IMG/VR virus record: IMGVR_UViG_3300010368_000009
Coordinates: 37,447 to 101,446 of that record
From: a virus
Strand: one strand, 5' to 3'
DNA: 64,000 bases
Position 1 is the stretch's first letter. The number at the start of each line of letters is the position of its first letter. The notes under the pieces were generated by a model that saw nothing but the letters and a program-made list of their open reading frames with translations, was not told the origin of the DNA and searched no databases. The position numbers were made by a program, and so were the translations under genes. Below, piece after piece: positions 1,111-39,300 of the stretch.

Positions 1111-2742
1111 TTACCGAACGAATTCAGCCATTACCGATGGTGCGTTAGCATCAAATCCAACGATGTCGAGCATGCCCGGATCGTCTGGGTTAGCAATAGT
1201 GAACTCCGTTGCAGTCATACCAACAACAACCAGCTTTGCGTTGATGCCGGTCTTCTTGCGATAGTCACGAAGTGCTTCATGTGGATGAATGCCACCAGCC
1301 CATGTTTCATTATCCGTGTAGATAACAAAGACATCAACTTCAATACCATTATCCATTGCATAAAGCATTGGTGCTGCGCAATCGGTTCCACCGAATGGAA
1401 GACCACTGACCTTGCTAATCACGCCACTAAGCGTTGACGCCCGGCCAAAGTTTAGTGGCGTGACACCACGATCACCTACCGAAGACGATCCACGACCCCA
1501 ACCACCACGTGAAGGACTCGTGAAAGAAACAGTATGAGTAACCGGTTCTGTCTTCATTGTGATGAGAGCCATTGCAGCTGAAGCATCACGTGCAGTCAGA
1601 TTGGTATTCATAATGTTTTCCCAACCCATTGAGCCGGAAACATCAAGTGCAAGCAGATGACGCTTTCCAGTAGGAACAACATTCTTGAAGGCCAACATAA
1701 ATGCTTCTTCAAGAGCGGACGTAATGTTTCCATTAACATTCCATGTGTTATTACCACGGAAACCCTTACCACTTTCGTAAGTCTTCAGAGCAAGAAGCAC
1801 CGCCATTGGGTGGATACGTGACTTATGGATCAAATTTTGGTCCGTAAGACGACGCACTGCTTCTTGTTCAAACTCGGACATTGGCTTGAATAGATTGATC
1901 TTATCCGAAGACATATTTCCGAGATTACGGATCATAGCGGTCATTGGCATCTTATCAAAAAGAGCTTCCCAAACCTTTGGTTCGTTCAACATTTCCGTTG
2001 GAAGTGCTTCACGAGGCAGGTTAGCGTTCTTGATCAGATCAATCGTTTCCTTCACTGTTGCTGTCTTCACCATTTCGTATGCAGTGATGATAGCAGGCAG
2101 GTTAGCGGCATCTACTGGACGCCCGGACAGCCAACGGAAGAGCGAGTTACGCTCTGTGTCGTCTGTCTTAGGGTGTGCCAGACGAAGCAGGTCAAGGTGT
2201 GTCCAACCTTCGCGTTGACGATACTTCGTTGTCTGATAGGCAAGATCATCAACCGTTTGGTTGATATACCAATTACCGACAGCACGACGAAGCGCTGGAC
2301 CCCAACCACGGAACTGTTCTATGAATTCCGCGAACTGGAACAGGTGTGTACCGATACGAGCAACACGAGGCAGAGCCGCAAGAGCGTATGCAGCAACCTT
2401 TGGGTTAGCTGGATCACAAGCCATTGCGAGTGCAAACAGAGCTGCATCGTTACGATATGCACGACCGTTAACAGAAACGTCAACAATAAGATCGACTGCA
2501 CGGAAACCATTTTCAGCGATTGCCGTCTTCATGGAGTCTGCATTGCTAAGCGTGAGTTCACGAGCGGATGCATAATATGATGGTGCATCCGATCCAAGAA
2601 TCAGGAATCGTTCAAGACGACCGAAGCTATCCAGCGTGAACGAATATCCGCCCGCGTTGTTTTCCGCCTGCTTAGGGGAAGCTGCTTCTGTTTGTGGGGT
2701 TTGTCGGTTACGAGTTCCGACATTCTTATATGCAGTTGCCAT
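1111..2742 (-). CDS. rsr: Ro60/TROVE-domain RNA-binding protein (Rsr ortholog) with C-terminal vWA domain
   Basis: Motifs NNAGGYSF, RLERFLILGS, KYRQREGWTHLDLLRLAHPK, MPMTAMIRNLG, RIHP, vWA DVSGSM, GGTDC, YTDNETW. Start placed at MATAYK, which has an AGAAGG RBS; the longer TTG start runs into the RNA array. Confidence 0.97.
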   Translation of the reverse strand: MATAYKNVGTRNRQTPQTEAASPKQAENNAGGYSFTLDSFGRLERFLILGSDAPSYYASARELTLSNADSMKTAIAENGFRAVDLIVDVSVNGRAYRNDAALFALAMACDPANPKVAAYALAALPRVARIGTHLFQFAEFIEQFRGWGPALRRAVGNWYINQTVDDLAYQTTKYRQREGWTHLDLLRLAHPKTDDTERNSLFRWLSGRPVDAANLPAIITAYEMVKTATVKETIDLIKNANLPREALPTEMLNEPKVWEALFDKMPMTAMIRNLGNMSSDKINLFKPMSEFEQEAVRRLTDQNLIHKSRIHPMAVLLALKTYESGKGFRGNNTWNVNGNITSALEEAFMLAFKNVVPTGKRHLLALDVSGSMGWENIMNTNLTARDASAAMALITMKTEPVTHTVSFTSPSRGGWGRGSSSVGDRGVTPLNFGRASTLSGVISKVSGLPFGGTDCAAPMLYAMDNGIEVDVFVIYTDNETWAGGIHPHEALRDYRKKTGINAKLVVVGMTATEFTIANPDDPGMLDIVGFDANAPSVMAEFVR

Positions 2743-2806: not shown

Positions 2807-2889
2807 TTAACGAGCAAATGAGTTGCAGTGGATATGGTTTGTCAAAGTATGAGTCTGATTATGATAATCCATTACATCCGGCACGTTAA
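2807..2889 (-). ncRNA. Y RNA-like unit 1 (minimal, 83 nt)
   Basis: RNA 5'-UUAACGUGC[C]GGAUG...GGAUUAUC...CAUUUGCUCGUUAA; bulged-C helix; adjacent to Ro60. Confidence 0.8.
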
Positions 2890-2907
2890 TATTACTATAT
2901 TACTAAT

Positions 2908-3053
2908 ATGGCTTTGTGAGCAAATGTATAGAAAATAGGGTTTAAGCGCTCTACCGCTGAGCTACCAAGCCGCGAACGACCTGAGTTGGATTCGAACCAA
3001 CGACCTCTCCATTACAAGTGGATAACCTATTTTCATCCGGCTCACAAAGCCAT
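2908..3053 (-). ncRNA. Y RNA-like unit 2 (YrlA-type) with circularly permuted tRNA-Thr(UGU) domain
   Basis: Ro stem GAGC[C]GGAUG/CAUUUGCUC, then anticodon arm UCCA-CUUGUAA-UGGA, T-arm GUUGG-UUCGAAU-CCAAC, loop-closed acceptor stem and D-arm GCUC-AGCGGUA-GAGC. Confidence 0.88.
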
Positions 3054-3058
3054 TTTAG

Positions 3059-3205
3059 TAAGACGAGTAAATGAAATGACAAAGGGATAATATACAGTTG
3101 CGTCTACCAATTCCGCCACTCCCCGTTAGATTGGTCGGGGAGACAGGACTTGAACCTGTAATACTCACTGTTCCTTAGATAACCCTAAATCTCCGACACG
3201 TCTTA
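3059..3205 (-). ncRNA. Y RNA-like unit 3 (YrlA-type) with permuted Leu-like tRNA domain
   Basis: Ro stem GUGU[C]GGA/UUUACUC; T-arm ACAGG-UUCAAGU-CCUGU; acceptor CUCCCCG-ACCAAUCUAA-CGGGGAG; D-arm GCGGAAUUGGUAGACGC. Confidence 0.85.
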
Positions 3206-3236
3206 AATCATTTCCTTCTTTGTTCAGTCGTTAGTA

Positions 3237-3305
3237 GTTACGAGCAAATTGTTGAAAATGGGGGTTCATCAACAAAAGATAACCCACTCTCATCCGGCAC
3301 GTAAC
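3237..3305 (-). ncRNA. Y RNA-like unit 4 (minimal, 69 nt)
   Basis: GUUACGUGC[C]GGAUGAGAGUGGGUUAUC...CCCAUUUUCAACAAUUUGCUCGUAAC. Confidence 0.82.
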
Positions 3306-3314
3306 CGCTTTAGT

Positions 3315-3382
3315 ACTGCGAGCAAATTGTTTGAAATGGGGGTTCATCGTTGCAAGATAACCCACTTCATCCGGCCCGCAGT
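3315..3382 (-). ncRNA. Y RNA-like unit 5 (minimal, 68 nt)
   Basis: ACUGCGGGC[C]GGAUGAAGUGGGUUAUC...CCCAUUUCAAACAAUUUGCUCGCAGU; near-paralog of unit 4. Confidence 0.82.
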
Positions 3383-3400
3383 CTTATTGCGATGTGGATA

Positions 3401-3429
3401 TACTTAAGGGTAATAATTCGGGGTGTCAA
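3401..3429 (-). promoter_or_regulatory. putative sigma70 promoter of the Y RNA/Ro60 operon
   Basis: Minus strand TTGACA-N17-TAAGTA about 20 nt upstream of unit 5. Confidence 0.55.
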
Positions 3430-3502: not shown

Positions 3503-3579
3503 TGCGGGTTAGAGAAGTTGGTCATCTCGTTAGACTCATAATCTGAAAACCGGTGGTTCGAGTCCACCACCCGCTCCCA
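3503..3579 (+). tRNA. tRNA-Met(CAT), initiator-like
   Basis: TTAGA-CT CAT AA-TCTGA anticodon arm, T-arm GGTGG-TTCGAGT-CCACC, CCA; U1:U72 mismatch and A11-U24 pair. Confidence 0.88.
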
Positions 3580-27312: not shown

Positions 27313-30300
27313 ATGCATCGTATTGACAGTGAAGGCTCAATTAACAATCAATTCTCAGAGGGAAATCCGTCTCTTGGTGTTGAAGGAACAAAGGTTACTG
27401 CTGATTTCTTGAATGCTCTTCAAGAAGAATTAGCATATACAATTGAGTCTGCCGGGTTAACCTTGGAAAAAGGTAACCACTCCCAATTAGCAAATGCTAT
27501 TTTGACCCTCGTGGGTGGTGGTGGATCATTTCCAAATTTAGAAACACGTATTACTCAATTGAATTCTTCATATTTGTATGGTGCCAGAAATATATTCCGT
27601 CAAAATGACGAACCACTTGAAAATGTACAGGGTCCATTCTATGATAATGATATATGGATTGAAACAGATCAAAGCCCTGAACGAGTTTGGGTTTGGAATT
27701 CTATAACAGAAACATGGATTGATACTACTAGTGAAGCAAGCGCCCGTGGTATCTTATCCCAACAGAAGCTTCAGGCAATTTCTGACGGTGTTGTTCAGAT
27801 TTTCATACAAACCGATACACCAACTGGTGCTTCTGAGGGTGATCTTTGGTATAATGATCGTGATGACTTGCTATTCACCTATGATGCAGGTGTATGGTTT
27901 ACTGTATATGATGAGTTTTCGAAACGAGTTATCGTTGACGCGATCATCAGAGAAGCAGCGAACACTGCACAGGGTACAGCCGATTCAAAAATTCTCACCT
28001 ACTATCAAACATCGGCACCGGTCGGATTAACCGCACAGAACGATGGTGATATCTGGTTCGATACCAGTGACTCCAATAAAGTATATCGTTATGCACATCC
28101 TACGTGGATCGCCATTTCTGATCTTCGCATTCAAACCGCCCTAGATTATATTTTCCTTCAAGGAGCAATCGCTGACGGAACTATATTCGTTTATTTTTCT
28201 GCGGATGAACCAACCCAAGCTAACCAAGCTGCACTATCTCCACCAAAACAAGCACCATCCGAGGGTGATGTATGGGTTGATATTACCGATGATGGCGGAA
28301 GTCCAAGAAACGATGTTTACTTGTTCAATAATAATGTTTGGGTTCAACAGACTGATCCAGATTTCATTCGACTGCTTCTAAGTTTTGCGAGTGCTCGTGC
28401 AATTTCTGACGGTGCTGTAACCATTTACTTCAGTCCAACTGCACCAGATGACACATTCATTCCGGCACCGGCCTATGGTGATATTTGGTTTGATACATCT
28501 ACTGTTTCTATACCTGATGTGAATGCCGCTGACCCTGCTACCGCTGCTCAAATCAACGTTACCAAATGGGAACAATATAGATATGACGGAACATCATGGG
28601 TAGTGATTGCTGACTTCAAAGTTAAAATCATTGAAGCCAATCTGAAGAGTGAACAATTCGCACGAACCGCAGAAGACACTGCAATCTCTGGTGAAATCAC
28701 CACGGCGGTAACTCGTATTGGTGAAAATGAAGCAACCGTCCAGCAATCATTAGTATCAATCAACGGTATCGCTGGTGCTTATGGTGTTAGAACGAACGTT
28801 AATAATAAAGTGGTTGGTTTTGGTTTCATCACTGATTATGAACGAGAAATTGAATTCACCAACACCGGTTCGTTGGATTTTAATCCGGGTGATGAAGTCT
28901 TCCTTGGCGTTGACTATGCAAATAAAACCTATGCAGCTGTAATTGTATCGGTTGATAACGTTAATGAAACAATGCGAGTCATTTCGGAATCAGGTACATT
29001 TGCTACTGGTGTCACTTTGGCTTCTCGGTATAGATTGCTGGCGAATGCAACTATCGATGCAGGTACATTAAATCCGACGCCGGGTGATTCTGAATTCGAA
29101 ATCATTGTTGATAAGTTTAAAATCACTGATGGAACATCTTCGTTAACCCCATTCAGTATCAGTGGTGGCGTCGTATATGTTGGTGCTCTCGATACGAGTG
29201 TGCCACAAGTACAATACATTGGTGAGTTTGCATCTGATCCAGCAACGACTTATCCAATCAACTCAATTTACAAAAACACCACCAATGGTAACACGTATGT
29301 TTTGGAATATATCACCGGCACATCCGGTCCAAAACAGTGGGCGATCTTCCTAGAACGCGGTACAAACGCACGCTCGTTGGTCATCACCGCTAATGTTCCG
29401 GGTTATATGTTTGATAGCAATGCGGCATCATCTCCAACAAACCCTACTATAACCTTCAATGTACAATATCAGGGCCAAGCATCAGCAATCACAAGTACAG
29501 ATATTGTTGTTACTGATAAAGATGATAATGTGATTGCAGCAACACTTACGAGTACGGTTACGGATGATACCGTGATTTTTGATGCCGGTGGAACAACTCA
29601 TCGTGGATCATTCAAATTTGATATTGCTTATACAGAATTCGCAGCCAATGAATTTCCAATCACCATCACGGTTGATGATGGAACTCTATCTGACACCATG
29701 TTCGTTCCGAGAATTATTGGATCAACCGCCAAACTGATATCACTTAATCCAGATTCATCGGTCTTTCTTTTCGAGGATGATGTAGCAACTGTTCCAGAAA
29801 ATGCGTCTATCCATTTCCGCATCCAGCACCAATCATTGAGTACAGCACCGACAACATCGGAACTTACAATCGTTGATGATGCGGCAACATCATTCTCTTC
29901 TACCAACTTTACATCAGCTGGTAGTGGTTCGGGTGTATCATCGTTTGAATTATTATGGTCTACCGTTTCAGCCGCAGTTTTCCCAATCACGGTCACGATT
30001 GATGACGAAAGTATCAATGATGTCATCGTGGTTAGAAAACTAATCGGTGGTGTTGATGCCGTTGCAGGTTTCTTAACCAATGAATCTCATCTGGTGCCAG
30101 CTGAAGAAGATGGAACCATTGTGGTGGGTGGCCTTGATGATGCCATTGGTACATTTGATGTGTATCGCGGTATCACTAAGCGTAATACAGATACAGCATA
30201 TACTGTATTATCAACAATAGGTTGTTCAGCCACGATTGATGATACTGCTGGTGGAACTGCTGGTAATTATGCTATCACGGCGATGGCCGCCAATAAAGCA

Positions 30301-33300
30301 AGAGCTGTATTCCAAGCCGTATATGATTCGGTCACCATCACAAAAGTAATGAGCCTGACCAAATCATTAGCAGGGGTGGGTGCAAAAGCGCTTTATCTTT
30401 TCTCAGATGCGCAAACCTTTGAATTCACTGGGGATAATCAAGCGAAAGATGGTGGTGCCGTCATTACCTTGTCCACGATTCGTACTGGTGTTTCGGGAAT
30501 TACTTGGACAGCGGTAAACGAGCTTGATGATCCGGTCGCTTTGTCTGGAACTGGTGACGATACTAGAACCTTACCGATTGGTAACTTTGCTGCATCTGAA
30601 TATGTAACAGTCACGGTTGCTGTAACAATTGATACTGTTGAATATAGTGATAAGATCAGAATTGTTAGACTGGTTGATGGATCGAGTACAATTAATGTAG
30701 TTCTTTCAAATGAATCGCATACTTTTTTTGCTGATGAGAATGGTGTCATCAGTGGTGGAGATTACGATAGTGGAAACTCTTTAATATCGGTGTATCGCGG
30801 CACTGAAGTAATTTTATATCAGGGTGCGGCTGGTAATAACAAATTTAGATTTGGTACGATTACTGCTTCTGCTGGTATCACTATTGATGGTGGCGAAACT
30901 GCACCAACCGTTGGTATTTCCGCCATGACCAATTTGTTTGGTTATATTGATGTACCTGTCATCTATAGAAATAATAATGGTGCCGACACAACATATACTA
31001 AACGTATTTCATATGCTAAATCACGCGAAGGTGAATTGGGAAGAAACCTTCAACTGTATGGTACTGGACAGGTGTTTAGATTTGATGGCGATAATATTGC
31101 AATCAATCCTTCTGACACAATTACGATTACCGCCTTCCGTCAACATCTTGATACAGACCCTGTATTCACTGCTCTAAACGATAGTGCTCAATCGGTAACC
31201 TTGACTGGCACTGGTGATTCAAGAGCATTGAGTATTACTGATTTTGGTACATCCGAATTCGTTAAGGTCACCTGTGTTGCAACATATACTGTCAATGCGG
31301 TTGAAGTAGAAATCACTGATACCTTCTCCATCTATAGAATCAAAGGTGCAATCGCTGGTCTAGTTGTTCTTATGACCAATGAAAACCATACCTTCTTTGC
31401 TGGCCCAGACGGAACAATTGATGCTGGACTGTTCGATGATGGTAATTGTACTGTTCGTGTGTTCCGTGGTTCTGAAGAAATCTCATATGATGTTGGTGGC
31501 GGTCTTAATACTTTCAGTTTCGGAACCATTGTTGCCAGCAATGTTATCAAAGATGTAACAGAGACTGCACCCGAAATTGGTGTTAGTTCAATGTCTGGTG
31601 ATGCTGGTTCTCTTACCGTTCCGGTAATCTATAAAGACCCTACCGGTAATGATGAAACCATAACCCGTGTCATCTCTTATTCCAAGGCCAAGGTTGGTGC
31701 ACAGGCACGTGGGTTGCGCATGTCTGCCACATCACAAATCTTTAGATTTGATGGTGAAGGTGTCGCTCTTAATGGTGCTGATGAAATTACCCTAACCACT
31801 CAGAGAACACTCTTGGGTGACAATCCGACATGGACCGCTATCAATCAGGCTGGTGGTGCCGTGGCTCTGTCATCAGTGGATGCAGATACCAAAAAAGTAA
31901 CGATTGCCAACTTTGGTTCATCTGAATGGGTTAGAGTTTCGGCATCGATCACAACTAGTATCGATGGCAACAGTGTCACGTATCGTGATGAGATAACCAT
32001 TGTAAGATTGAAACGTGGTACTGATGCAATTACTGCATTGATTGAAAATGAATCACACATCTTCCCATCAGATGAAAATGGTGTTGTTTCTGATTACACC
32101 AGTGGTGATACAATAGTTCGTGTATTCTTGGGTGATACAGAAAAAACATATGGTACTGGTAATGAAGAATTTCGGTTTGGCACTATAACTCCAACGAATG
32201 TAACCAATGCAAATTTAACTGCTCCTGCGATTGGTGTTTCTGCCATGACAGAAGATACTGGTCGTTTGAGATTACCGATTATCTATCGCGATGTGAATGC
32301 TGTTGATAGAACTGTATATAAAGAAATCACATATGTTAAGTCTCGTGCTGGTGTGGCCGCTCGTAATCTAAGATTATTTGCAACCAAATTGGTTTTTGAA
32401 TTTGATAGCGAAGACTCACCGGTCAATGGAAGTGACAGTATTGTATTCACAGCTGTTGCCACCAATGTATCCAATCTTACATTCGCTGCCGAAGATCAAA
32501 ATGAAGTAGCTGTTGCATTAACCGGATCAGGTAACCAACGCACTCTTGCAATAACAGCATTTGATGATGCACAAAGTGTCAGTGTGACCGCGAGTGGAAC
32601 ATCCATGATCGGTGGTGTTTCGGTCGGCTTCAGTGATACAATCACTATTGTGAGACTACGTGAAGGTGCTGGTGGTGTACAGGTTTCATTAACTAATGAA
32701 TCACATACGTTCTATGCAGATGAAGAAAATGCAGTAATCGGAACAGAGTATGCTGGTGGTAATTCAATAATCAAAGTATATGCTGGCACCACCGAAGTAA
32801 ATTATAATGCTAGTGTTGTTCCGGGTACATGGCGTTTAGGTACGGTAACCCCAACCGATGTCACACGCAACGGAGCATTGGCGTTACCAATTATTGGTAT
32901 CTCGGATTTTGTTAAAGCTAGCAACACCGGTATATTATTATTCGAAGTAATTTATACTGACCTTAATAGTGTTGATAGAACTATACAACGTGCCATCACT
33001 TATTCCAAGTCTAAAGCTGGAACCGATGCTCGTGCCCTGAGATTGATAGCCTCTTCTCAATTATTCAACTTCAATACATCCGGTCAACCTGTTGATAATG
33101 CTGATGAAATCACTCTAAACGCGGTTCGTCAATTTATTGATGGTACAGCGGCATGGACTGCTGTGGATGAGGATAGTAATAATCTTTCATTGACTTCTGG
33201 TGCTAATGGTGACGAGAAGATTTTAAGTATTGCCAACTTTGGTTCTGCTAATCAGGCGAATATTTCTGTTAGTGCTGTGGATTCGTTCACGGGTGAAACT

Positions 33301-36300
33301 TTAGTTGATACCTTAACCATTTATAGACTTAATCAGGGTTCCGAGGGTAAAGACGGAGTAACTGTCTTTATTGGAAATGATAATCATTCATTCCCTGCGG
33401 ACGAGGCTGGGTTGGTGGATGATTATTCTACCGCTAATACGACTGTAGTTGTTTATAGTGGTTCTGTTGCAATCAACTATTCGGCAACGAAGGTGAACAA
33501 CACTTTCCGTTTCGGTACAATGACACCAACCAATGTGACTCGTAATGTTGGCTTGGTTGCCCCTATCATTGGTATTTCGGCAATGTCTGATACTGATGGT
33601 TCGCTTACTGTTCCGGTTATCTTTACGGATAATCAAGGATCAGATTTGACCTTCACCAAGATAATTTCTTATACGAAATCACTTGCAGGAACGAATGTAA
33701 GAAATATTAGACTTCGTGCAACATCTTTTACGTTTGAGTTCGACCAGTTCGGTGACCCGATTGATACCAATCAAATCATAACCTTCTCGTCTCTTAGAAT
33801 AAATGTTCCATCAGCAACGTGGACGGCTGTTGATCAAAATGATGATGCTGTTGCATTCACATCATCACCAGATGCTGACACACGAACATTAGACATTGAT
33901 GACATCGGTTCTGCAACCGAGATAACCGTTAGTGTATCATCTACCTATAACGCTATTGATTACATTGACACTATTCGAGTAGTTAGATTGGATCAAGCTC
34001 GTGATTCTATTACCATCGTTGGAACAAATGAAAACCATAGTTTCTTTGCTGATGAAGGTGGTGTTATTTTAGTAGGTGATTATGCAAGTGGTGACTGTAC
34101 TTTCTCAGTTTACCATGGTACTAGACTAATAACATATCAATCAACTGCGGCTGATGATCGTTGGCGCTTCGGTGTCATAACGGCCAACAGTGTTACTAAA
34201 AATGCGGCTTTAACTGGTGGTGCAACTGGTATTACGGCTATGTCGGCAAATGTCGGCAACTTAACAGTACCAATTGTTTATAGAGATAAAAATGGACAAG
34301 ATACTACCTACACAAAAATTATATCTTACACAAAATCAAGAAACGGGCGCGATGCGAGATGGGTACAACTCGCGGCATCGGAACAAGTATTCAGATTTAC
34401 AGGCGACGACTTACCGCTTGATAATGTTCAAACCGTTTCAATCAATGTAGCTGTAAATCTTGTTGATACTGGTGATGTAGTTGTTACTGCTAAAGATGAA
34501 CTAGGCGGTTCGATAACACTGGGTGGTTCTGGTGTTGCGAGAACTATGACGATTTCACAGTTCGGTAATTCCGAATATGCAGTCGTTGAAGCTACAGCAT
34601 CGATAACGGTTCAGGGTCAAGCCCAAGTTATCAAAGACACCATCACGATTGGTCGTGTGCGGAACGGTTCGGGGGTTGTTCAAGCTCTCCTTACCAATGA
34701 ATCACATTCATTCGCAGCAGATGAAGATGGTGTTGTTTCATCGTATGGCGGTGGCGATACAGATGTTCGTGTCTTCCGTGGTTCCGAAGAAATAAACTAT
34801 CAAGCCACTGCTGCTAATAATAAATTCCGGTTTGGAACTTATATAGTTTCGAATGTTACTAGTAATGGTGGTTTGACCAAACCAGCGGTCGGCATTTCTG
34901 CCATGTCTAGCGATTTTGGCACACTGACCATTCCAATTATCTATCGTGATCCGAATGGTGATGATGTAACAATCAATAAAGTTGTTTCATATTCCAAGTC
35001 GCGTGCTGGTAATAAAGCTCGTTTGATGCGACTTTATGGAACAGGGCAAGTATTCAAATTCAATCAGGATGGTAATCCTGTAAATGGTTCTGATACTATT
35101 ACCCTAAATGCCATTTCTACTAATCTCGGCGTTCCAACGTGGACAGCTGTAGATGAGAATTCAGTCAACCGAAACACTTTGCTATTAACTGGTGCGACCG
35201 ATTATCAGAAAATATTAAACATCGCCAATTTCATACCATATGAAACCATTACAGTGACTGCATCAGCGACTCATGACGCTGTAAATTATTCTGATCAATT
35301 CACTGTTTATAAGGTAGATGAAGGTGCCAGTAATATTGTTGTGGCTCTGTCGAACGAAGCTCATATATTTGGTGCTGATGAGGAAGGGGTTGTTTCTGAT
35401 TATGACAGTGGCGATTCGGTAATCCGTGTCTTCCGTGGTGCTACTGAAGTTTCATATAATGCCGGTGGTGCAGATGATAGTTTCTTGGTTAATAATTTTG
35501 TTGCGACCGACACAACACGCGATGGTGCTCTAGCCTTACCAAGTGTCGGTATTTCTGCCATGTCAGAAGATGCTGGTACGCTTTCATTCGACGTTGTTTA
35601 TACTGATTCAGTGGGTTCAACCGGACCAACCCAAACTAAGACTATTTCATATTCCAAAGCTCGTGCTGGTGTTAATGCTAGAGCAATTCGTTTGTTCTCT
35701 TCATCAATGCAATTCAACTTTGATGCTGGTGACAGTCCACTCAACGGCAGTGATTCAATTGCGTTCGATGCTATCAAGTCCTTCTTACCGGGAACGGTCA
35801 CATGGACTGCTAAAGATCAAACAGCCGGTAATATTACATTAACCGGTACTGGTAATAGTCGTGCTTTATCTGTCACCAATTTTGGTTCATCTACATATGT
35901 TGATGTCAAAGCGAGTGTATCGGATACCGTTAATACGATAACCACTGTTTATGAAGATCAAATCCGCGTTGTGAGGGTCCGTGACGGTGCTTCTGGTTCA
36001 ATTGGTGCCGATGCCCTACAAGTGTTCCTGACGAACCCACAGACGGCCTTTGCGTTGGATGGTGATGGCAAAATGGTTGAGAGTTACCTAATAGGTAACA
36101 CCGATGTTGAAGTTTATCTTGGAACAACCGCTGTATCTTATTCGGGAACCACCACAGCCAACACGTGGAGATATGGAACCTTTACGGAAACCAATGTCAA
36201 AAAATATCAATCGTCTGGTACGGTAGGTATTAGTGACATGTTCGCTGATCAGGGTTCTTTGTCTGTTCAAATTATATATAGAACAACCGATGCTCAAGAT

Positions 36301-39300
36301 ATAGTAATCAATAGAACAATCAATTATTCCAAAATTAGATCGGGTGTATCTCAATCTGATTGGTATCTGATTCCAACTAAACAAACGTTTGCGTTCGATG
36401 GTGATGATAATGCTAAAAATGGTTCTGATACGATTACCGCTAATCTTACTCGTTCGGCATCAATCTCGGAACCGGTTTGGACAACCTCGCCTTCTATCAC
36501 ATTATCCGCTGGCACTTCGGTTGATCAAAAAATAATCACTATTGGTAACTTTGGTGCCAATGAGATTGTTGATGTCAAGGCTACATCGAGTGAAGGCAAG
36601 CCGGTATATTCAAACAACTACAATTATGATTTCGATAGTAGTATTTTCGGATGGCAAATTTCTGGTGCCGTTACTCAGACAATTAATAATGGCTGGGCAA
36701 TCACGGTTGATGATTTGGTTAGCACAAATCAATATGTATACAATGATTTACCAGCAGCTGATTATTTTGCGGGTGCTGATTATAGATACATGGCAGTTGA
36801 GATTGAAGTTATTTCATCTAATGGAACCGGTCAGAAGCGTATCTATTGGAGTACAGCGGGTCATAGTTATGCTAGTTCCAACTATACAACAGCTAATATA
36901 CAAGATGCTGACCTATCTATTGTTGGCACTCATACATTAATCTTTGATCTACATAATCCAACCGTTGGTTCCTCAACAGACTTTAGTGGTAATACTATTC
37001 GTGGTATCCGTTTTGATCCATATGGTGCTGATGATGCATCATTCGTTATTAAGCGCATCGGTCTTGCAACAGCCATTACTTATTTTGAAGATAATTTCAC
37101 CATCTCTCGTATCATCGATGGTACAAATAATATTCAGGTCATCGGTTCTAATGAATCACACACATACAAAGCTGATGAAGATGGCGTAATCACGGTTGCG
37201 ATGAATACCGGTAACTGCGTATATACATTGTATCGTGGTTCGAATGTCGTTTCATATTCTGGCACCACGACCAACAACACATGGCGTTGGGGAACCTTCA
37301 CAACCACGTCTGGAACGATCACCGCATCTTATTCCGGCTCGACTGTGACGCCAACTGTACTGGGTGCTGATACAAATACTTTAGACGTTCAGCTTATCTA
37401 TCGTGATCCGAATGGTGTTGATACCACGTTCACTCGTACTCTTTCTTGGACCAAAGCAAGACAGGGTGTTCTCGCAAGAACATTAAAGATCACTGCTTCT
37501 TCGCTCGTGTTTGAATTTGATCAAGACGCGAATGCCAAAAACGGTGCTGATTATATTGATTTCGATGTCAATGTATTGAATCTATCATCGCCTTATACTT
37601 GGACCGCTGTAGATCAGAGTGGATCATCATTAACATTAACCACGGTAGATTCAAATACATCAAGATTAACAATTGCTAACTTCGGTACATCCACTCGCGC
37701 AACGATTACTGCTTCTCGCACGGAGTCGGTTGATGGTTCAAATAAAACTTATACTGATAGTGTAACTGTTGGTCGCATTCAAGATGCTTCTAATAATGTG
37801 GTTGTCATTCCAACTAATGAATCACACACATTCTTCGCTAATGAAGACGGTTATGTTACCGATTATTCTGGTGGAGTCGGCACCTTTGTTGTTTACCGTG
37901 GCTTAAGCTCAATCAGTTATTCAGCAACGCCAACCAATAATAAATGGCGTTATGGCACTATTGTTCCTATTGGTATTTCACATAGTGTTGTTGGTGCCGA
38001 TATCATAACTTCAAACATGACGCTTAGTGAAGCTCGTATCGATGTTCCTGTGATTTACCGGGATGCCAATGGTCAAGATTATACATACAATCAACGGTTA
38101 TCATTTGCTAAAGCAATACAAGGTTTTATCGGTGCTGGTGGTATTTCTATTTTCCAAACCAATCCAACACATGTCTTCACCACTGATCAGGCTGGTGCTC
38201 TTCTACCGGGTATTGCATATTCTGATGGTGATTCAACATTCTCGGTATATGCTGGTGATGAAGAATTAACGCACAGCACTTTCCCTAAGCTGAATTCATT
38301 CACCATTACTAATACTACTCCAAGTAATGTGACCCAGAATGGTGGATTGTCTTTACCAACTATTGGTATATCTGCACTATCTGCCGATTCTGGAAACATC
38401 ACATCTACTATTGTTGCATATCAAGCATCAACCCGCGTTTATAATTTTGGTTTCGAAAAAGGTATTGATGGAACCCAGACAACAACGGGTCCAATTGGGT
38501 GGCTTTACTCTGGTTCGACCAATAACGTTGGATATGTAGCCACCGTTGATTCCAATAGTAATTTCAACTCTACCTTATCATGGGGATCAACAACTAGCAC
38601 TTCACCATTTGGGTCATGTGGTTGGTATAGAGTTGGTAAACGCTTTGGTGTTCAGTCGGTTCCTAGCTTCATCACCATGACCGCGAAGGTTCGTCCTTCT
38701 TCTATGCTTGTACCAGCATCTGTTTCGGTATCAGGTACACAGGTTTATCTAGCTGAAGATGATTGTTATGCTGAAGTCATCTTCCGAGATATAAACAATG
38801 CACAGATTGGATCAACGGTTTATTCAAAATCATTATCACATCAATTGTTTGATCAGGGTGAAGGCGGTCAGTCTTATAATGGTGTGTGGACAACCTTCAC
38901 TTACACCAACTCGTCCGTTCCAGTGGGCACCGAAGCGATTGAAATATATCTTGTTTCGTCTGAAGCTTCTAATTCTGTTCAAACAAATGGGTATCGTGGT
39001 TCCAATTCGGGTGTTCTATTTGATGATTTCCAATTTGCATCAGATGCGGCGATCTATGACATCACTCTTGAACGCGAAATTACACAAACCACTTTATATA
39101 CTCGTTCGAAAACTGGTCAGAATTCAGTACTCTATTACATTCAACCAACCACTGGTACTGCTATTAAGAATGGTGTCGGTTCGTTAACTGGTGAATTACA
39201 TAAAGTTGATGGACCATCTGATGTCAAGGTTACGAGTGGTAATGTCAAACTATATCAAGACGGCGTTTTAATAACCAGTCCAACAAATTATGCTTATAGT

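What the first reader, a model, noticed from the sequence alone, without database searches (positions are those of the whole stretch)
2908..3053. Y RNA carrying a complete circularly permuted tRNA-Thr(UGU) with an intact anticodon loop
Seen, in RNA order: anticodon arm UCCA-CU UGU AA-UGGA, variable region AGGUC, T-arm, acceptor 3' strand UCAGGUC, a GUUCGC cap, acceptor 5' strand GGCUUGG, UA, then the D-arm. This is a full cloverleaf opened between the D and anticodon arms and mounted on the Ro stem. As I recall it, in the described YrlA fold the helix leading to the Ro-binding stem takes the place of the anticodon arm; here a separate canonical 7-nt anticodon loop is kept. Inference: a non-chargeable tRNA mimic that could act as bait for anticodon nucleases, modification enzymes or uncharged-tRNA sensors.
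Basis: partly seen in the sequence, partly recalled or inferred. Interest (0 to 1): 0.82.

Follow-up and report, generated by a model that had tools for sequence, protein, structure and literature searches.

The report
Phage Y RNA with anticodon-like arm
A small RNA gene beside a phage's Ro60 gene is a known type of tRNA look-alike (a YrlA-class Y RNA), and its extra hairpin, published as a "variable arm", sits and looks exactly like a tRNA anticodon arm here and in dozens of related RNAs.

Summary
On the minus strand, 3053-2908 folds (MFE -53.7 kcal/mol, z -4.6) into a Ro60-type bulged stem carrying a T arm, a capped 7-bp acceptor stem, a D arm and a 4-bp hairpin with the 7-nt loop CUUGUAA. 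A 5-nt AGGUC loop follows the hairpin. Permuted in silico, ARAGORN calls it tRNA-Thr(UGU).

It is one of five Y RNA genes upstream of a phage Ro60 gene, so it belongs to the known YrlA class. The hairpin is not peculiar to this phage. It is the "V stem-loop" of Chen et al. 2014, which they read as a variable arm.

In about 245 Ro60 loci from phages and at least six bacterial phyla, 61 of 72 modules chosen by motif alone have this hairpin in exact anticodon-arm register. Among 56 unique arms, Y32 is 95%, U33 93%, R37 89% and A38 80%. The stems covary and the triplet varies freely: the closest relative has UAC, not UGU. The "Thr" identity is therefore nominal.

The papers I could read say YrlA lacks an anticodon loop, so the anticodon-arm reading looks unpublished. 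The bait function is untested.

Earlier scan notes on this window describe the same array; none had been followed up.

The parts
2908..3053 (-). Whole Y RNA unit (YrlA class) as delimited by its closing stem; true transcript ends unknown
   Evidence: RNAfold MFE -53.7, z -4.55. Partial Rfam YrlA match 3009-2942, 28.4 bits, E 0.0011. Contigs of a metatranscriptome library cover it at 100% identity, a weak hint of expression.
3040..3053 (-). Basal closing stem, 5' strand (pairs with 2921-2908)
   Evidence: 14 consecutive pairs in the MFE structure
2908..2921 (-). Basal closing stem, 3' strand
3035..3039 (-). Bulged C (3039) plus GGAU, pairing with AUUU 2925-2922: the Ro60-type bulged helix
   Evidence: Position 15 unpaired and 16-19 paired in the MFE. 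The same CCGGAUG.../...UUUGCUC design occurs in the other four units of the array.
3026..3034 (-). Upper stem 5' strand (pairs with 2939-2931), leading into the junction
3021..3027 (-). GGUUAUC motif. GG(UU) closes the Ro-side stem; AUC starts the anticodon-like arm (A27 U28 C29).
   Evidence: Invariant or nearly so in 20 to 36 aligned homologs. Corresponds to the conserved YUAY that 'begins the V loop' in PMC4201824.
3007..3023 (-). Anticodon-arm look-alike (tRNA positions 27-43). Stem 3022-3019 / 3011-3008, loop 3018-3012, triplet UGU at 3016-3014.
3002..3006 (-). 5-nt variable loop AGGUC (positions 44-48). C48 matches G15 of the D loop.
   Evidence: 15/48 is G-C in 44 and A-U in 9 of 56 modules. 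The closest relative changed both sides: A15 with AGGUU.
2985..3001 (-). T arm, GUUGG-UUCGAAU-CCAAC
   Evidence: 100% paired with compensatory changes in 20 homologs
2965..2984 (-). Closed acceptor stem: 3' strand 2984-2978, 6-nt cap 2977-2972, 5' strand 2971-2965. No CCA.
2948..2964 (-). U8 A9 and D arm, GCUC-AGCGGUA-GAGC
2940..2947 (-). G26 and the single-stranded linker CUUAAAC back to the Ro-side stem
   Evidence: Unpaired in the MFE. G/A + CUAAA-like linker recurs in homologs.
3066..3200 (-). Neighbouring YrlA unit of the split-anticodon-stem type (Leu-like D arm, ACCA after the acceptor 3' strand)
   Evidence: Weak Rfam YrlA match 3189-3070. RNAfold alone does not recover its cloverleaf.
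3237..3383 (-). Two minimal Y RNAs without a tRNA module (3383-3315 and 3306-3237)
   Evidence: Rfam stem-bulge RNA model RF01656 at 35.6 and 31.2 bits, below gathering. Fold z -4.4 and -3.8.
2807..2890 (-). Fifth Y RNA unit (minimal type), directly upstream of Ro60
   Evidence: RF01656 31.4 bits; fold
1111..2742 (-). Ro60 (Rsr) gene, 543 aa
   Evidence: Pfam TROVE 1.8e-41 and Ro60 vWA 2.8e-62
3398..3429 (-). Promoter-like box upstream of the array: TTGACA 3429-3424, then TAAGTATAT 3406-3398
   Evidence: Read from sequence. The same box lies upstream of the array in the closest relative, L006 about 1931-1965. Function inferred.

Best explanation
This is a YrlA-class Y RNA, one of five Y RNA genes transcribed ahead of a jumbo-phage Ro60 gene. 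Its long closing stem, with a bulged C, is the Ro60 docking site. This is inferred from the motif and the gene neighbourhood. The distal part is a complete tRNA look-alike: a T arm, a sealed 7-bp acceptor stem and a D arm, plus a 4-bp hairpin with a 7-nt U-turn-type loop. That hairpin occupies exactly the place of the anticodon arm. It lies directly 5' of a 5-nt variable loop, with C48 matching G15. The cloverleaf is therefore opened between positions 26 and 27, where the Ro stem is inserted through a 6-7-nt single-stranded linker. The hairpin is the published 'V stem-loop' of YrlA RNAs. It is a widespread, selected feature. Loop positions 32, 33, 37 and 38 and the pairing are conserved, while the triplet drifts. 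The RNA is not a decoding tRNA: its acceptor end is sealed, it has no CCA, and its 'Thr' identity is nominal. Most likely (inferred) the full L-shape, anticodon-like loop included, serves as the handle by which tRNA-recognising proteins engage the Ro60 particle. These could be modification enzymes, or a nuclease or repair partner such as PNPase in the bacterial systems.
For: Fold and z-score. Ro60 ORF with TROVE and vWA_Ro60 domains immediately downstream. Partial Rfam YrlA match covering V region, T arm, acceptor and D arm. Homologous units beside Ro genes in Mycobacterium phages Sparky and prophiGD43A-5, Caulobacter phage CcrColossus and the closest uncultured relative L006. ARAGORN calls the permuted sequence tRNA-Thr(tgt). 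Register test: 41 of 82 modules have at least 3 contiguous pairs closing a 7-nt loop at the exact tRNA offset, against at most 16 at any of 14 other offsets and 6% of shuffles. Of 72 modules chosen by GGUUAYC position only, 61 have the hairpin, against 18 of 100 other modules. Covariation on 20 motif-selected sequences: pairs 30-40 and 31-39 change on both sides in 8 and 11 sequences; covariation score 0.536 against 0.147 shuffled (0 of 500) and at most 0.097 when slid. Loop signature in 56 unique arms: C/U32 53, U33 52, A/G37 50, A38 45, with 28 different triplets. Levitt pair 15-48 consistent in 53 of 56. [quoted passage not shown]
Against: No structure probing, binding or modification data exist for this RNA. 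The stem has only 4 pairs, with A27 never paired. The 26-44 association that would show the D stem stacking on this hairpin is weak (mutual information 0.097; 368 of 5000 shuffles reach it). An alternative 4-of-5 pairing of UGGAG (3011-3007) with CUUAA (2946-2942), the canonical split anticodon stem, is possible in this one sequence and excludes the hairpin; it is not conserved in homologs. The Rfam YrlA model scores only 28.4 bits against a gathering score of 69. My module scanner is home-made, and its counts are not corrected for relatedness.
Confidence: 0.8

Rival explanations
1. Published reading: the hairpin is a tRNA variable arm. The Ro-proximal helix (GGUU/AACC) is the equivalent of the anticodon stem, as in the Salmonella YrlA crystal structure.
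For: Chen et al. 2014 model the V region as the variable arm. In S. Typhimurium YrlA the anticodon-stem equivalent is built from the 5' and 3' strands that lead to the Ro stem (10.1101/312249). Split-stem modules of that kind do exist in the same loci, including the neighbouring unit at 3200-3066.
Against: This reading needs 5-6 extra unpaired nucleotides between position 26 and the 'anticodon stem', and 6 nt between the 'V arm' and the T stem instead of 1-2. The loop is 7 nt with the Y32-U33...R37-A38 signature, not the short loop of class II variable arms (established tRNA knowledge). The 5-nt AGGUC/UGGUC spacer is the standard class I variable loop.
Confidence: 0.15
2. One reading: the anticodon-like loop is bait or a decoy for anticodon nucleases, anticodon-loop modification enzymes or uncharged-tRNA sensors. 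This reading is compatible with the best explanation.
For: The loop shape is under purifying selection while the triplet is free. U36-A37-A38 occurs often: U36 in 27 of 56 arms, uncorrected binomial p 2e-4. Ro60 and Y RNA genes sit in RNA-repair operons induced by tRNA nicking in Salmonella (PMC7790460 abstract; PMC8394870). Jumbo-phage Ro/TROVE proteins are discussed as RNA-repair platforms (PMC7824862).
Against: There is no direct evidence. The same hairpin is common on bacterial chromosomes and MAGs (30 of 56 unique arms), so it is not a phage counter-defence speciality. Triplet variety is equally explained by neutral drift: window and L006 differ at 6 of 17 arm positions, and their T stems are also largely replaced. 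No RtcB gene is found in the 101-kb fragment held, though the record is about 30% complete, so this says little.
Confidence: 0.15
3. It is a real or decayed linear tRNA-Thr gene. The 5' strand of the closing stem would act as the acceptor strand, followed by the anticodon and T arms.
For: The Rfam tRNA model scores 28.3 bits on 3051-2977, gathering score 29. The homologous unit of prophiGD43A-5 is annotated 'tRNA-Thr (tgt)' in GenBank.
Against: ARAGORN does not call it. The linear fold has mismatched acceptor and D stems. It ignores the perfect D arm and capped acceptor downstream and the 14-bp closing stem. The conserved context is Ro60, with the same design in many loci.
Confidence: 0.02
4. 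It is a precursor of a two-piece, chargeable tRNA. RNase P would cut before the acceptor 5' strand, the cap would be trimmed and CCA added.
For: M. smegmatis YrlA is cut by RNase P and receives CCA (PMC4201824). 14 of 56 hairpin-type modules, including the L006 ortholog, carry NCCA right after the acceptor 3' strand, against about 1 in 64 by chance.
Against: This unit has no CCA and a tight 6-nt cap. No cleavage was seen for Salmonella YrlA. Position 2-71 is G-U, and there is no specific likeness to tRNA-Thr.
Confidence: 0.05

Closest known systems
YrlA RNAs with a 'V' stem-loop (M. smegmatis, mycobacteriophages and others; Chen et al. 2014, PMC4201824)
   Same: Encoded beside Ro60. Closing stem with a Ro-type motif. 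Conserved YUAY at the start of a hairpin upstream of the T arm. T arm, closed acceptor stem and D arm with near-invariant D and T stems. Direct sequence homologs in Mycobacterium phages (79.5% over 109 nt).
   Different: Nothing structural. The difference is in the reading: the paper calls the hairpin a variable arm, whereas register, loop length and loop signature fit an anticodon arm. The Rfam model RF02553 does not reach its gathering score here, or in 10 related loci.
S. Typhimurium YrlA (crystal structure 6CU1; Wang et al. 2018, 10.1101/312249)
   Same: L-shaped tRNA mimic with T, D and sealed acceptor arms on a Ro60-binding stem.
   Different: Salmonella YrlA 'lacks the anticodon loop'. 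Its anticodon-stem equivalent is formed by the two strands leading to the Ro stem, so the cloverleaf is opened in the anticodon loop. Here a separate hairpin with a 7-nt loop is present, and the opening lies between positions 26 and 27.
D. radiodurans Yrn1
   Same: A Y RNA with a T-arm-like element, for which a potential 'anticodon arm' was noted.
   Different: Yrn1 has the opposite arm order, a 6-nt loop, no variable arm and a doubtful D arm. It was judged a separate lineage.
Circularly permuted tRNA genes (for example in Cyanidioschyzon merolae; from my own knowledge)
   Same: The 3' half of the tRNA precedes the 5' half, with acceptor strands joined by a linker that sometimes contains CCA.
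   Different: Those are processed into functional decoding tRNAs. This RNA stays attached to a Ro-binding stem, and there is no evidence that it matures.
tRNA-shaped Y RNAs with the Ro-binding hairpin in place of the anticodon arm
   Same: Ro60-adjacent tRNA mimics in phages.
   Different: Those keep free acceptor ends and lose the anticodon loop. This one seals the acceptor end and keeps an anticodon-like loop. I did not test those notes.

Membership tests
YrlA-class bacterial/phage Y RNA (as defined in PMC4201824) | Encoded next to a Ro60/Rsr (TROVE) gene | tested here: met
   The unit ends 166 nt upstream of the Ro60 start on the same strand. TROVE 1.8e-41, vWA_Ro60 2.8e-62.
YrlA-class bacterial/phage Y RNA (as defined in PMC4201824) | 5' and 3' ends pair into a stem carrying a Ro-binding motif near the 5' end (GNCGAA-like, or GGUCCGA-like with a bulge) | tested here: met
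   GAGC[C]GGAUG pairs with CAUUUGCUC, leaving one bulged C. The motif is shared by all five units. Binding itself was not tested.
YrlA-class bacterial/phage Y RNA (as defined in PMC4201824) | Order T arm, closed acceptor-like stem-loop, D arm, with tRNA-invariant nucleotides | tested here: met
   Levitt pair 15-48 kept in 53 of 56 homologs.
YrlA-class bacterial/phage Y RNA (as defined in PMC4201824) | Conserved YUAY followed by an optional 'V' stem-loop upstream of the T arm | tested here: met
   UUAUC at 3025-3021 starts the hairpin.
YrlA-class bacterial/phage Y RNA (as defined in PMC4201824) | Physical association with Ro60; modification by TruB and DusA | not testable with these tools
   Needs immunoprecipitation and modification mapping.
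Rfam RF02553 (YrlA covariance model) | Score at or above the gathering threshold of 69 bits | tested here: not met
   28.4 bits, model positions 23-87 only. There was also no hit at gathering score in 10 related Ro loci, mycobacteriophages included. The model encodes the split-stem form.
Functional tRNA-Thr(UGU) | Free 5' and 3' acceptor ends with CCA (encoded or addable); called as a tRNA in the genomic order | tested here: not met
   The acceptor is sealed by a 6-nt cap with no CCA. ARAGORN makes no call in the window. The Rfam tRNA model is below gathering.
Functional tRNA-Thr(UGU) | Anticodon conserved among orthologs; body specifically like tRNA-Thr | tested here: not met
   The ortholog in L006 has UAC. 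Identity to the phage's own tRNA-Thr(UGU) is 70%, against 69% to Gly, Ile, Met and Pro tRNAs.
tRNA anticodon stem-loop (structural mimic) | 7-nt loop closed by a stem ending 5 nt before the T stem; Y32, U33, R37 | tested here: met
   C32 U33 UGU A37 A38 here. Register and signature are conserved. The stem is 4 bp, not 5.
tRNA anticodon stem-loop (structural mimic) | Coaxial stacking on the D stem through the 26-44 pair | tested here: inconclusive
   G26/A44 in 17 and A26/U44 in 13 of 56, but mutual information is not significant (368 of 5000 shuffles). Needs a 3D structure.

The most novel reading that the evidence does not exclude
The 'V stem-loop' of a large share of YrlA RNAs, in phages and bacteria alike, is a selected anticodon stem-loop mimic with a U-turn loop that often carries the U36-A37-A38 determinants of t6A. 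These Ro60 partners would then display a whole tRNA, including a readable anticodon loop. That loop would be the working end: it would be modified, cleaved or sensed by anticodon-loop enzymes such as nucleases, repair ligases or position-37 modifiers. This would link Ro60 particles directly to the tRNA damage-and-repair conflicts between phages and hosts.
Probability: 0.2. Interest if true: 0.75.

Novelty: new member of a known kind. Interest (0 to 1): 0.45.

Why it matters
What the tRNA-like module of bacterial and phage Y RNAs does is still an open question in the papers read here. Current descriptions say the module mimics only the D, T and acceptor arms and lacks an anticodon loop. If the extra hairpin is an anticodon-arm mimic, two things change. 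First, the geometry differs: Ro60 would hang from the 26/27 hinge rather than from the tip of the anticodon stem. Second, the list of candidate partners grows to include enzymes that read anticodon loops. This gives cheap, concrete tests: t6A or other position-37 modification, loop cleavage, and loop replacement. It also explains why such Y RNAs are mis-annotated as tRNA genes and missed by the Rfam YrlA model. For this particular phage RNA, though, the result is that it is an ordinary member of a widespread family.

Tried and rejected

2. Megablast of 20 kb of the window against the phage collection found nothing.

3. Recent descent from the phage's own tRNA-Thr(UGU) is rejected. Identity is 70%, no better than to other tRNAs.

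4. Covariation between positions 26 and 44, as a test of D-stem/hairpin stacking, was inconclusive.

5. A pseudoknot between the loop and the conserved linker after position 26 is rejected. The triplet varies while the linker stays CUAAA-like.

6. MAFFT alignments of whole units misplace the hairpin where the stem is one pair shorter. I therefore counted pairs only on the 20 gap-free, motif-selected sequences and used a T-arm-anchored register in scripts.

7. RNAfold does not recover the cloverleaf of the neighbouring Leu-like unit (z -0.34). Its reading rests on manual pairing.

8. RtcB was not found in the 101-kb record. The record is a fragment, so this carries no weight.

9. Read laying: RNA-library contigs cover 2812-3348 (X4) and 3213-3363 (X10). 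Contigs cannot show ends, strand or level, and uncovered stretches mean nothing.

10. The 2020 Annual Review on bacterial Ro60 (PMC10870794) and the supplements of Chen et al. 2014 are not held. I therefore cannot exclude that the anticodon-like nature of the V stem-loop is mentioned there.

11. No covariance model was built, and no complex or structure prediction was attempted. The tools offer no RNA 3D prediction.

Full report
WHAT IS THERE

Read on the minus strand, window 3053-2908 is a 146-nt unit closed by a 14-bp stem (3053-3040 with 2921-2908). Above that stem comes a bulged C (3039). Then follow a short GGAU/AUUU helix, a 9-bp upper stem and a multi-helix junction.

Going 5' to 3' from the junction:
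- the motif GGUUAUC (3027-3021);
- a hairpin UCCA-CUUGUAA-UGGA (3022-3008);
- G, then AGGUC (3006-3002);
- a canonical T arm (3001-2985);
- a 7-bp stem capped by GUUCGC (2984-2965);
- UA;
- a canonical D arm (2962-2948);
- G;
- a single-stranded CUUAAAC leading back to the upper stem.

RNAfold gives exactly this structure: -53.7 kcal/mol, shuffles -37.0 +/- 3.7, z -4.55, none of 200 as stable.

With the 5' acceptor strand through position 26 moved in front of the hairpin, ARAGORN calls tRNA-Thr(tgt) over residues 1-75. In the genomic order it calls nothing there.

CONTEXT

The unit is the fourth of five stem-closed units on the minus strand. They lie between a TTGACA box (3429-3424) and a 543-aa ORF (2742-1111). 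That ORF has TROVE (1.8e-41) and Ro60-vWA (2.8e-62) domains.

Three units lack a tRNA module: 3383-3315, 3306-3237 and 2890-2807. They score 31-36 bits, below gathering, on the Rfam stem-bulge/Y-type model RF01656.

The unit at about 3200-3066 is a second tRNA-like Y RNA. Its anticodon-stem equivalent is split between the two strands (ACAGU with ACUGU), and ACCA follows the acceptor 3' strand.

The DNA is a fragment of a large phage:
- an IMG/VR virus record of 101 kb, about 30% complete; the identical Ro60 protein is also seen on a 317-kb contig;
- baseplate and tail genes, and NAD-salvage genes;
- 19 tRNAs;
- freshwater or aquatic metagenomes as the source.

Contigs from two metatranscriptome libraries match the array at 100% identity: X4 at 2812-3348 and X10 at 3213-3363. 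This is only a weak hint of expression.

IS IT A KNOWN THING?

Yes, in kind. Chen et al. 2014 (PMC4201824) described YrlA RNAs beside Ro60 genes in more than 250 bacteria and phages, mycobacteriophages included. These RNAs have a T arm, a closed acceptor-like stem and a D arm.

[quoted passage not shown] They called it V and oriented it as the tRNA variable arm. The conserved YUAY is said to begin the V loop. That is this hairpin: UUAUC at 3025-3021 starts it.

Direct sequence homologs lie beside the Ro genes of several phages: Mycobacterium phages Sparky, Farewell and prophiGD43A-5 (76-80% identity over about 109 nt) and Caulobacter phage CcrColossus.

That holds only for the Salmonella RNA that was crystallised. 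For it, Wang et al. say it lacks the anticodon loop and has an anticodon stem made of nt 15-27 and 83-93.

IS THE HAIRPIN AN ANTICODON-ARM LOOK-ALIKE, AND IS IT CONSERVED?

I collected about 245 Ro60 loci: 80 IMG/VR, 80 metagenome and 80 GTDB genome contigs, plus three phage records. I scanned them with a script for the permuted module: T arm, acceptor 3' strand, cap, acceptor 5' strand, D arm. The script found 172 distinct modules.

Register test, anchored only on the T arm:
- At the exact tRNA offset (5-nt variable loop, 17-nt arm), 41 of 82 first-round modules have at least 3 contiguous pairs closing a 7-nt loop.
- At 14 other offsets the count is 1-16.
- In shuffles it is 6%.

To avoid selecting on pairing, I then chose modules only by where GGUUAYC lies. 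Of those 72 modules, 61 have the hairpin, against 18 of 100 remaining modules.

On 20 gap-free, motif-selected sequences the pair-counting tool gives these results:

| pair | result |
|---|---|
| 31-39 | AU 8, CG 7, UA 4 |
| 30-40 | GC 11, CG 5, UA 3 |
| 29-41 | CG in 19 of 20 |
| 28-42 | UA or UG in 13 of 20 |
| 27-43 | never paired |

The overall covariation score (hairpin and T stem together) is 0.536. Shuffles give 0.147 (0 of 500 reach the observed value), and slid partners give at most 0.097.

In 56 unique arms the loop reads as follows:
- position 32: C 44, U 9;
- position 33: U 52;
- position 37: A 39, G 11;
- position 38: A 45;
- positions 34-36: close to even, with 28 different triplets. 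GUU occurs 7 times, CAU 5, GAU 4 and AUG 4.

This is the anticodon-loop signature, which is established tRNA knowledge. It was not used to select the sequences.

The closest relative is L006, with Ro60 75% identical on a 335-kb contig. It has the same array. In the orthologous unit the arm is UCCU-CUUACAA-AGGG: a compensatory flip of the loop-closing pair and the triplet UAC. Its variable loop is AGGUU with A15, a double change at the Levitt pair. ACCA follows its acceptor strand.

Thirty of the 56 unique arms come from bacterial genome assemblies. These include Alphaproteobacteria, Chloroflexota, Verrucomicrobiota, Actinomycetota including Nocardia isolates, Armatimonadota and Myxococcota. 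The feature is therefore neither rare nor phage-specific.

WHICH READING, ANTICODON ARM OR VARIABLE ARM?

The anticodon-arm reading needs no extra nucleotides inside the tRNA frame:
- positions 27-43 are the hairpin;
- positions 44-48 are AGGUC or UGGUC, the standard class I variable loop, with C48/U48 matching G15/A15 in 53 of 56 modules;
- the Ro stem enters between 26 and 27 through a CUAAA-like linker.

The variable-arm reading has more to explain. It needs 5-6 unpaired nucleotides between position 26 and the stem it calls the anticodon stem. It needs 6 nt between the arm and the T stem. It also needs a 7-nt U33/R37 loop on a variable arm.

I therefore favour the anticodon-arm reading, but only on secondary-structure grounds. 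The one tertiary test I could make, 26-44 association, is not significant.

In this single sequence an alternative helix is also possible: UGGAG with CUUAA, 4 of 5 pairs. It is not conserved.

I found no statement of the anticodon-arm reading in the papers I could read. The 2020 Annual Review and the 2014 supplements were not available.

WHAT IT IS NOT

It is not a tRNA-Thr. The acceptor end is sealed and there is no CCA. The triplet is not conserved. The permuted module is 70% identical to the phage's genuine tRNA-Thr(UGU) and 69% identical to its Gly, Ile, Met and Pro tRNAs.

The Rfam tRNA model reaches 28.3 bits on the linear stretch 3051-2977, and 29-37 bits on similar stretches of other loci. 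GenBank annotates the prophiGD43A-5 homolog as tRNA-Thr(tgt). These appear to be false tRNA calls triggered by the anticodon-like and T arms.

Conversely, the Rfam YrlA model, which encodes the split-stem form, gives only 28.4 bits here. It gives no gathering-level hit in ten related Ro loci.

HOW IT MOST LIKELY WORKS

Shown:
- the fold and the conserved, covarying hairpin;
- the Ro60 neighbourhood;
- the family relationship.

Inferred from the family (PMC4201824; 10.1101/312249):
- the bulged basal helix docks Ro60;
- the distal module folds into a tRNA-like L;
- tRNA enzymes handle it.

My inference: the hairpin completes the L as its anticodon limb and is kept for its shape, not its triplet.

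Points in its favour are the conserved loop shape with a free triplet, the U36-A37-A38 enrichment and the Ro60-RtcB-tRNA-damage link in Salmonella. It has no direct support, though, and the bacterial distribution argues against a purely anti-defence role.

VERDICT

The RNA is an ordinary member of the YrlA family. The family-wide point, that the published V stem-loop is an anticodon stem-loop look-alike in exact register, is a modest and testable re-reading rather than a new kind of RNA.

Noticed in passing
window 2807-3383 (minus): Five Y RNA genes lie in tandem ahead of Ro60: three minimal ones that resemble metazoan or nematode stem-bulge Y RNAs (Rfam RF01656, 31-36 bits, below gathering) and two tRNA-like ones of different topology. 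The closest relative, L006, has four units (one minimal unit fewer).
   Followed up: partly
window 3066-3200 (minus): The neighbouring YrlA unit has a Leu-like D arm and a split anticodon stem (ACAGU/ACUGU), with ACCA directly after the acceptor 3' strand. Across all loci, 33 of 172 modules carry NCCA there, against about 1 in 64 by chance. This fits an origin from tandem tRNA genes and/or RNase P plus CCA processing, as reported for M. smegmatis.
   Followed up: partly
L002:2535-2613 (GenBank MW584167.1, gene 51): The annotated 'tRNA-Thr (tgt)' of Mycobacterium phage prophiGD43A-5 lies on a YrlA-type Y RNA next to its Ro gene and is probably a mis-call. That phage has at least four Y RNA units upstream of Ro.
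   Followed up: partly
G000:C1:17557-17633 (outside the window, about 20 kb upstream of it): ARAGORN calls a tRNA with anticodon CUA (amber-suppressor-like, labelled Pyl) in this phage fragment, alongside 18 ordinary tRNAs.
   Followed up: no
window 3398-3429 (minus); L006:1931-1965: A conserved box, TTGACA followed by TAAGTATAT, lies upstream of the first Y RNA in both phages. It is likely the array promoter, though the -10 part is atypical and the consensus scan did not report it.
   Followed up: no
L003:2100-2870 (Caulobacter phage CcrColossus, minus): At least four tRNA-like Y units lie upstream of its TROVE gene, none annotated. Two have 5-bp anticodon-like arms (loops CUGUUAA and AUCUGGA), one with ACCA and a 34-nt cap.
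   Followed up: partly
window 27313-40881 (+): A single open reading frame of 4522 aa.
   Followed up: no
56 unique anticodon-like arms from all loci: Position 36 is U in 27 of 56 arms. GUN (12) and CAU (5) triplets are the most frequent. U36-A37-A38 is the context of t6A37 in real tRNAs (from my own knowledge). Counts are not corrected for relatedness.
   Followed up: partly
window 3503-3579 (+): A tRNA-Met(CAT) gene lies on the opposite strand just beyond the Y RNA array promoter. In L006 a tRNA sits at the equivalent place. Ro/Y RNA arrays often adjoin tRNA genes (Sparky, L107).
   Followed up: no
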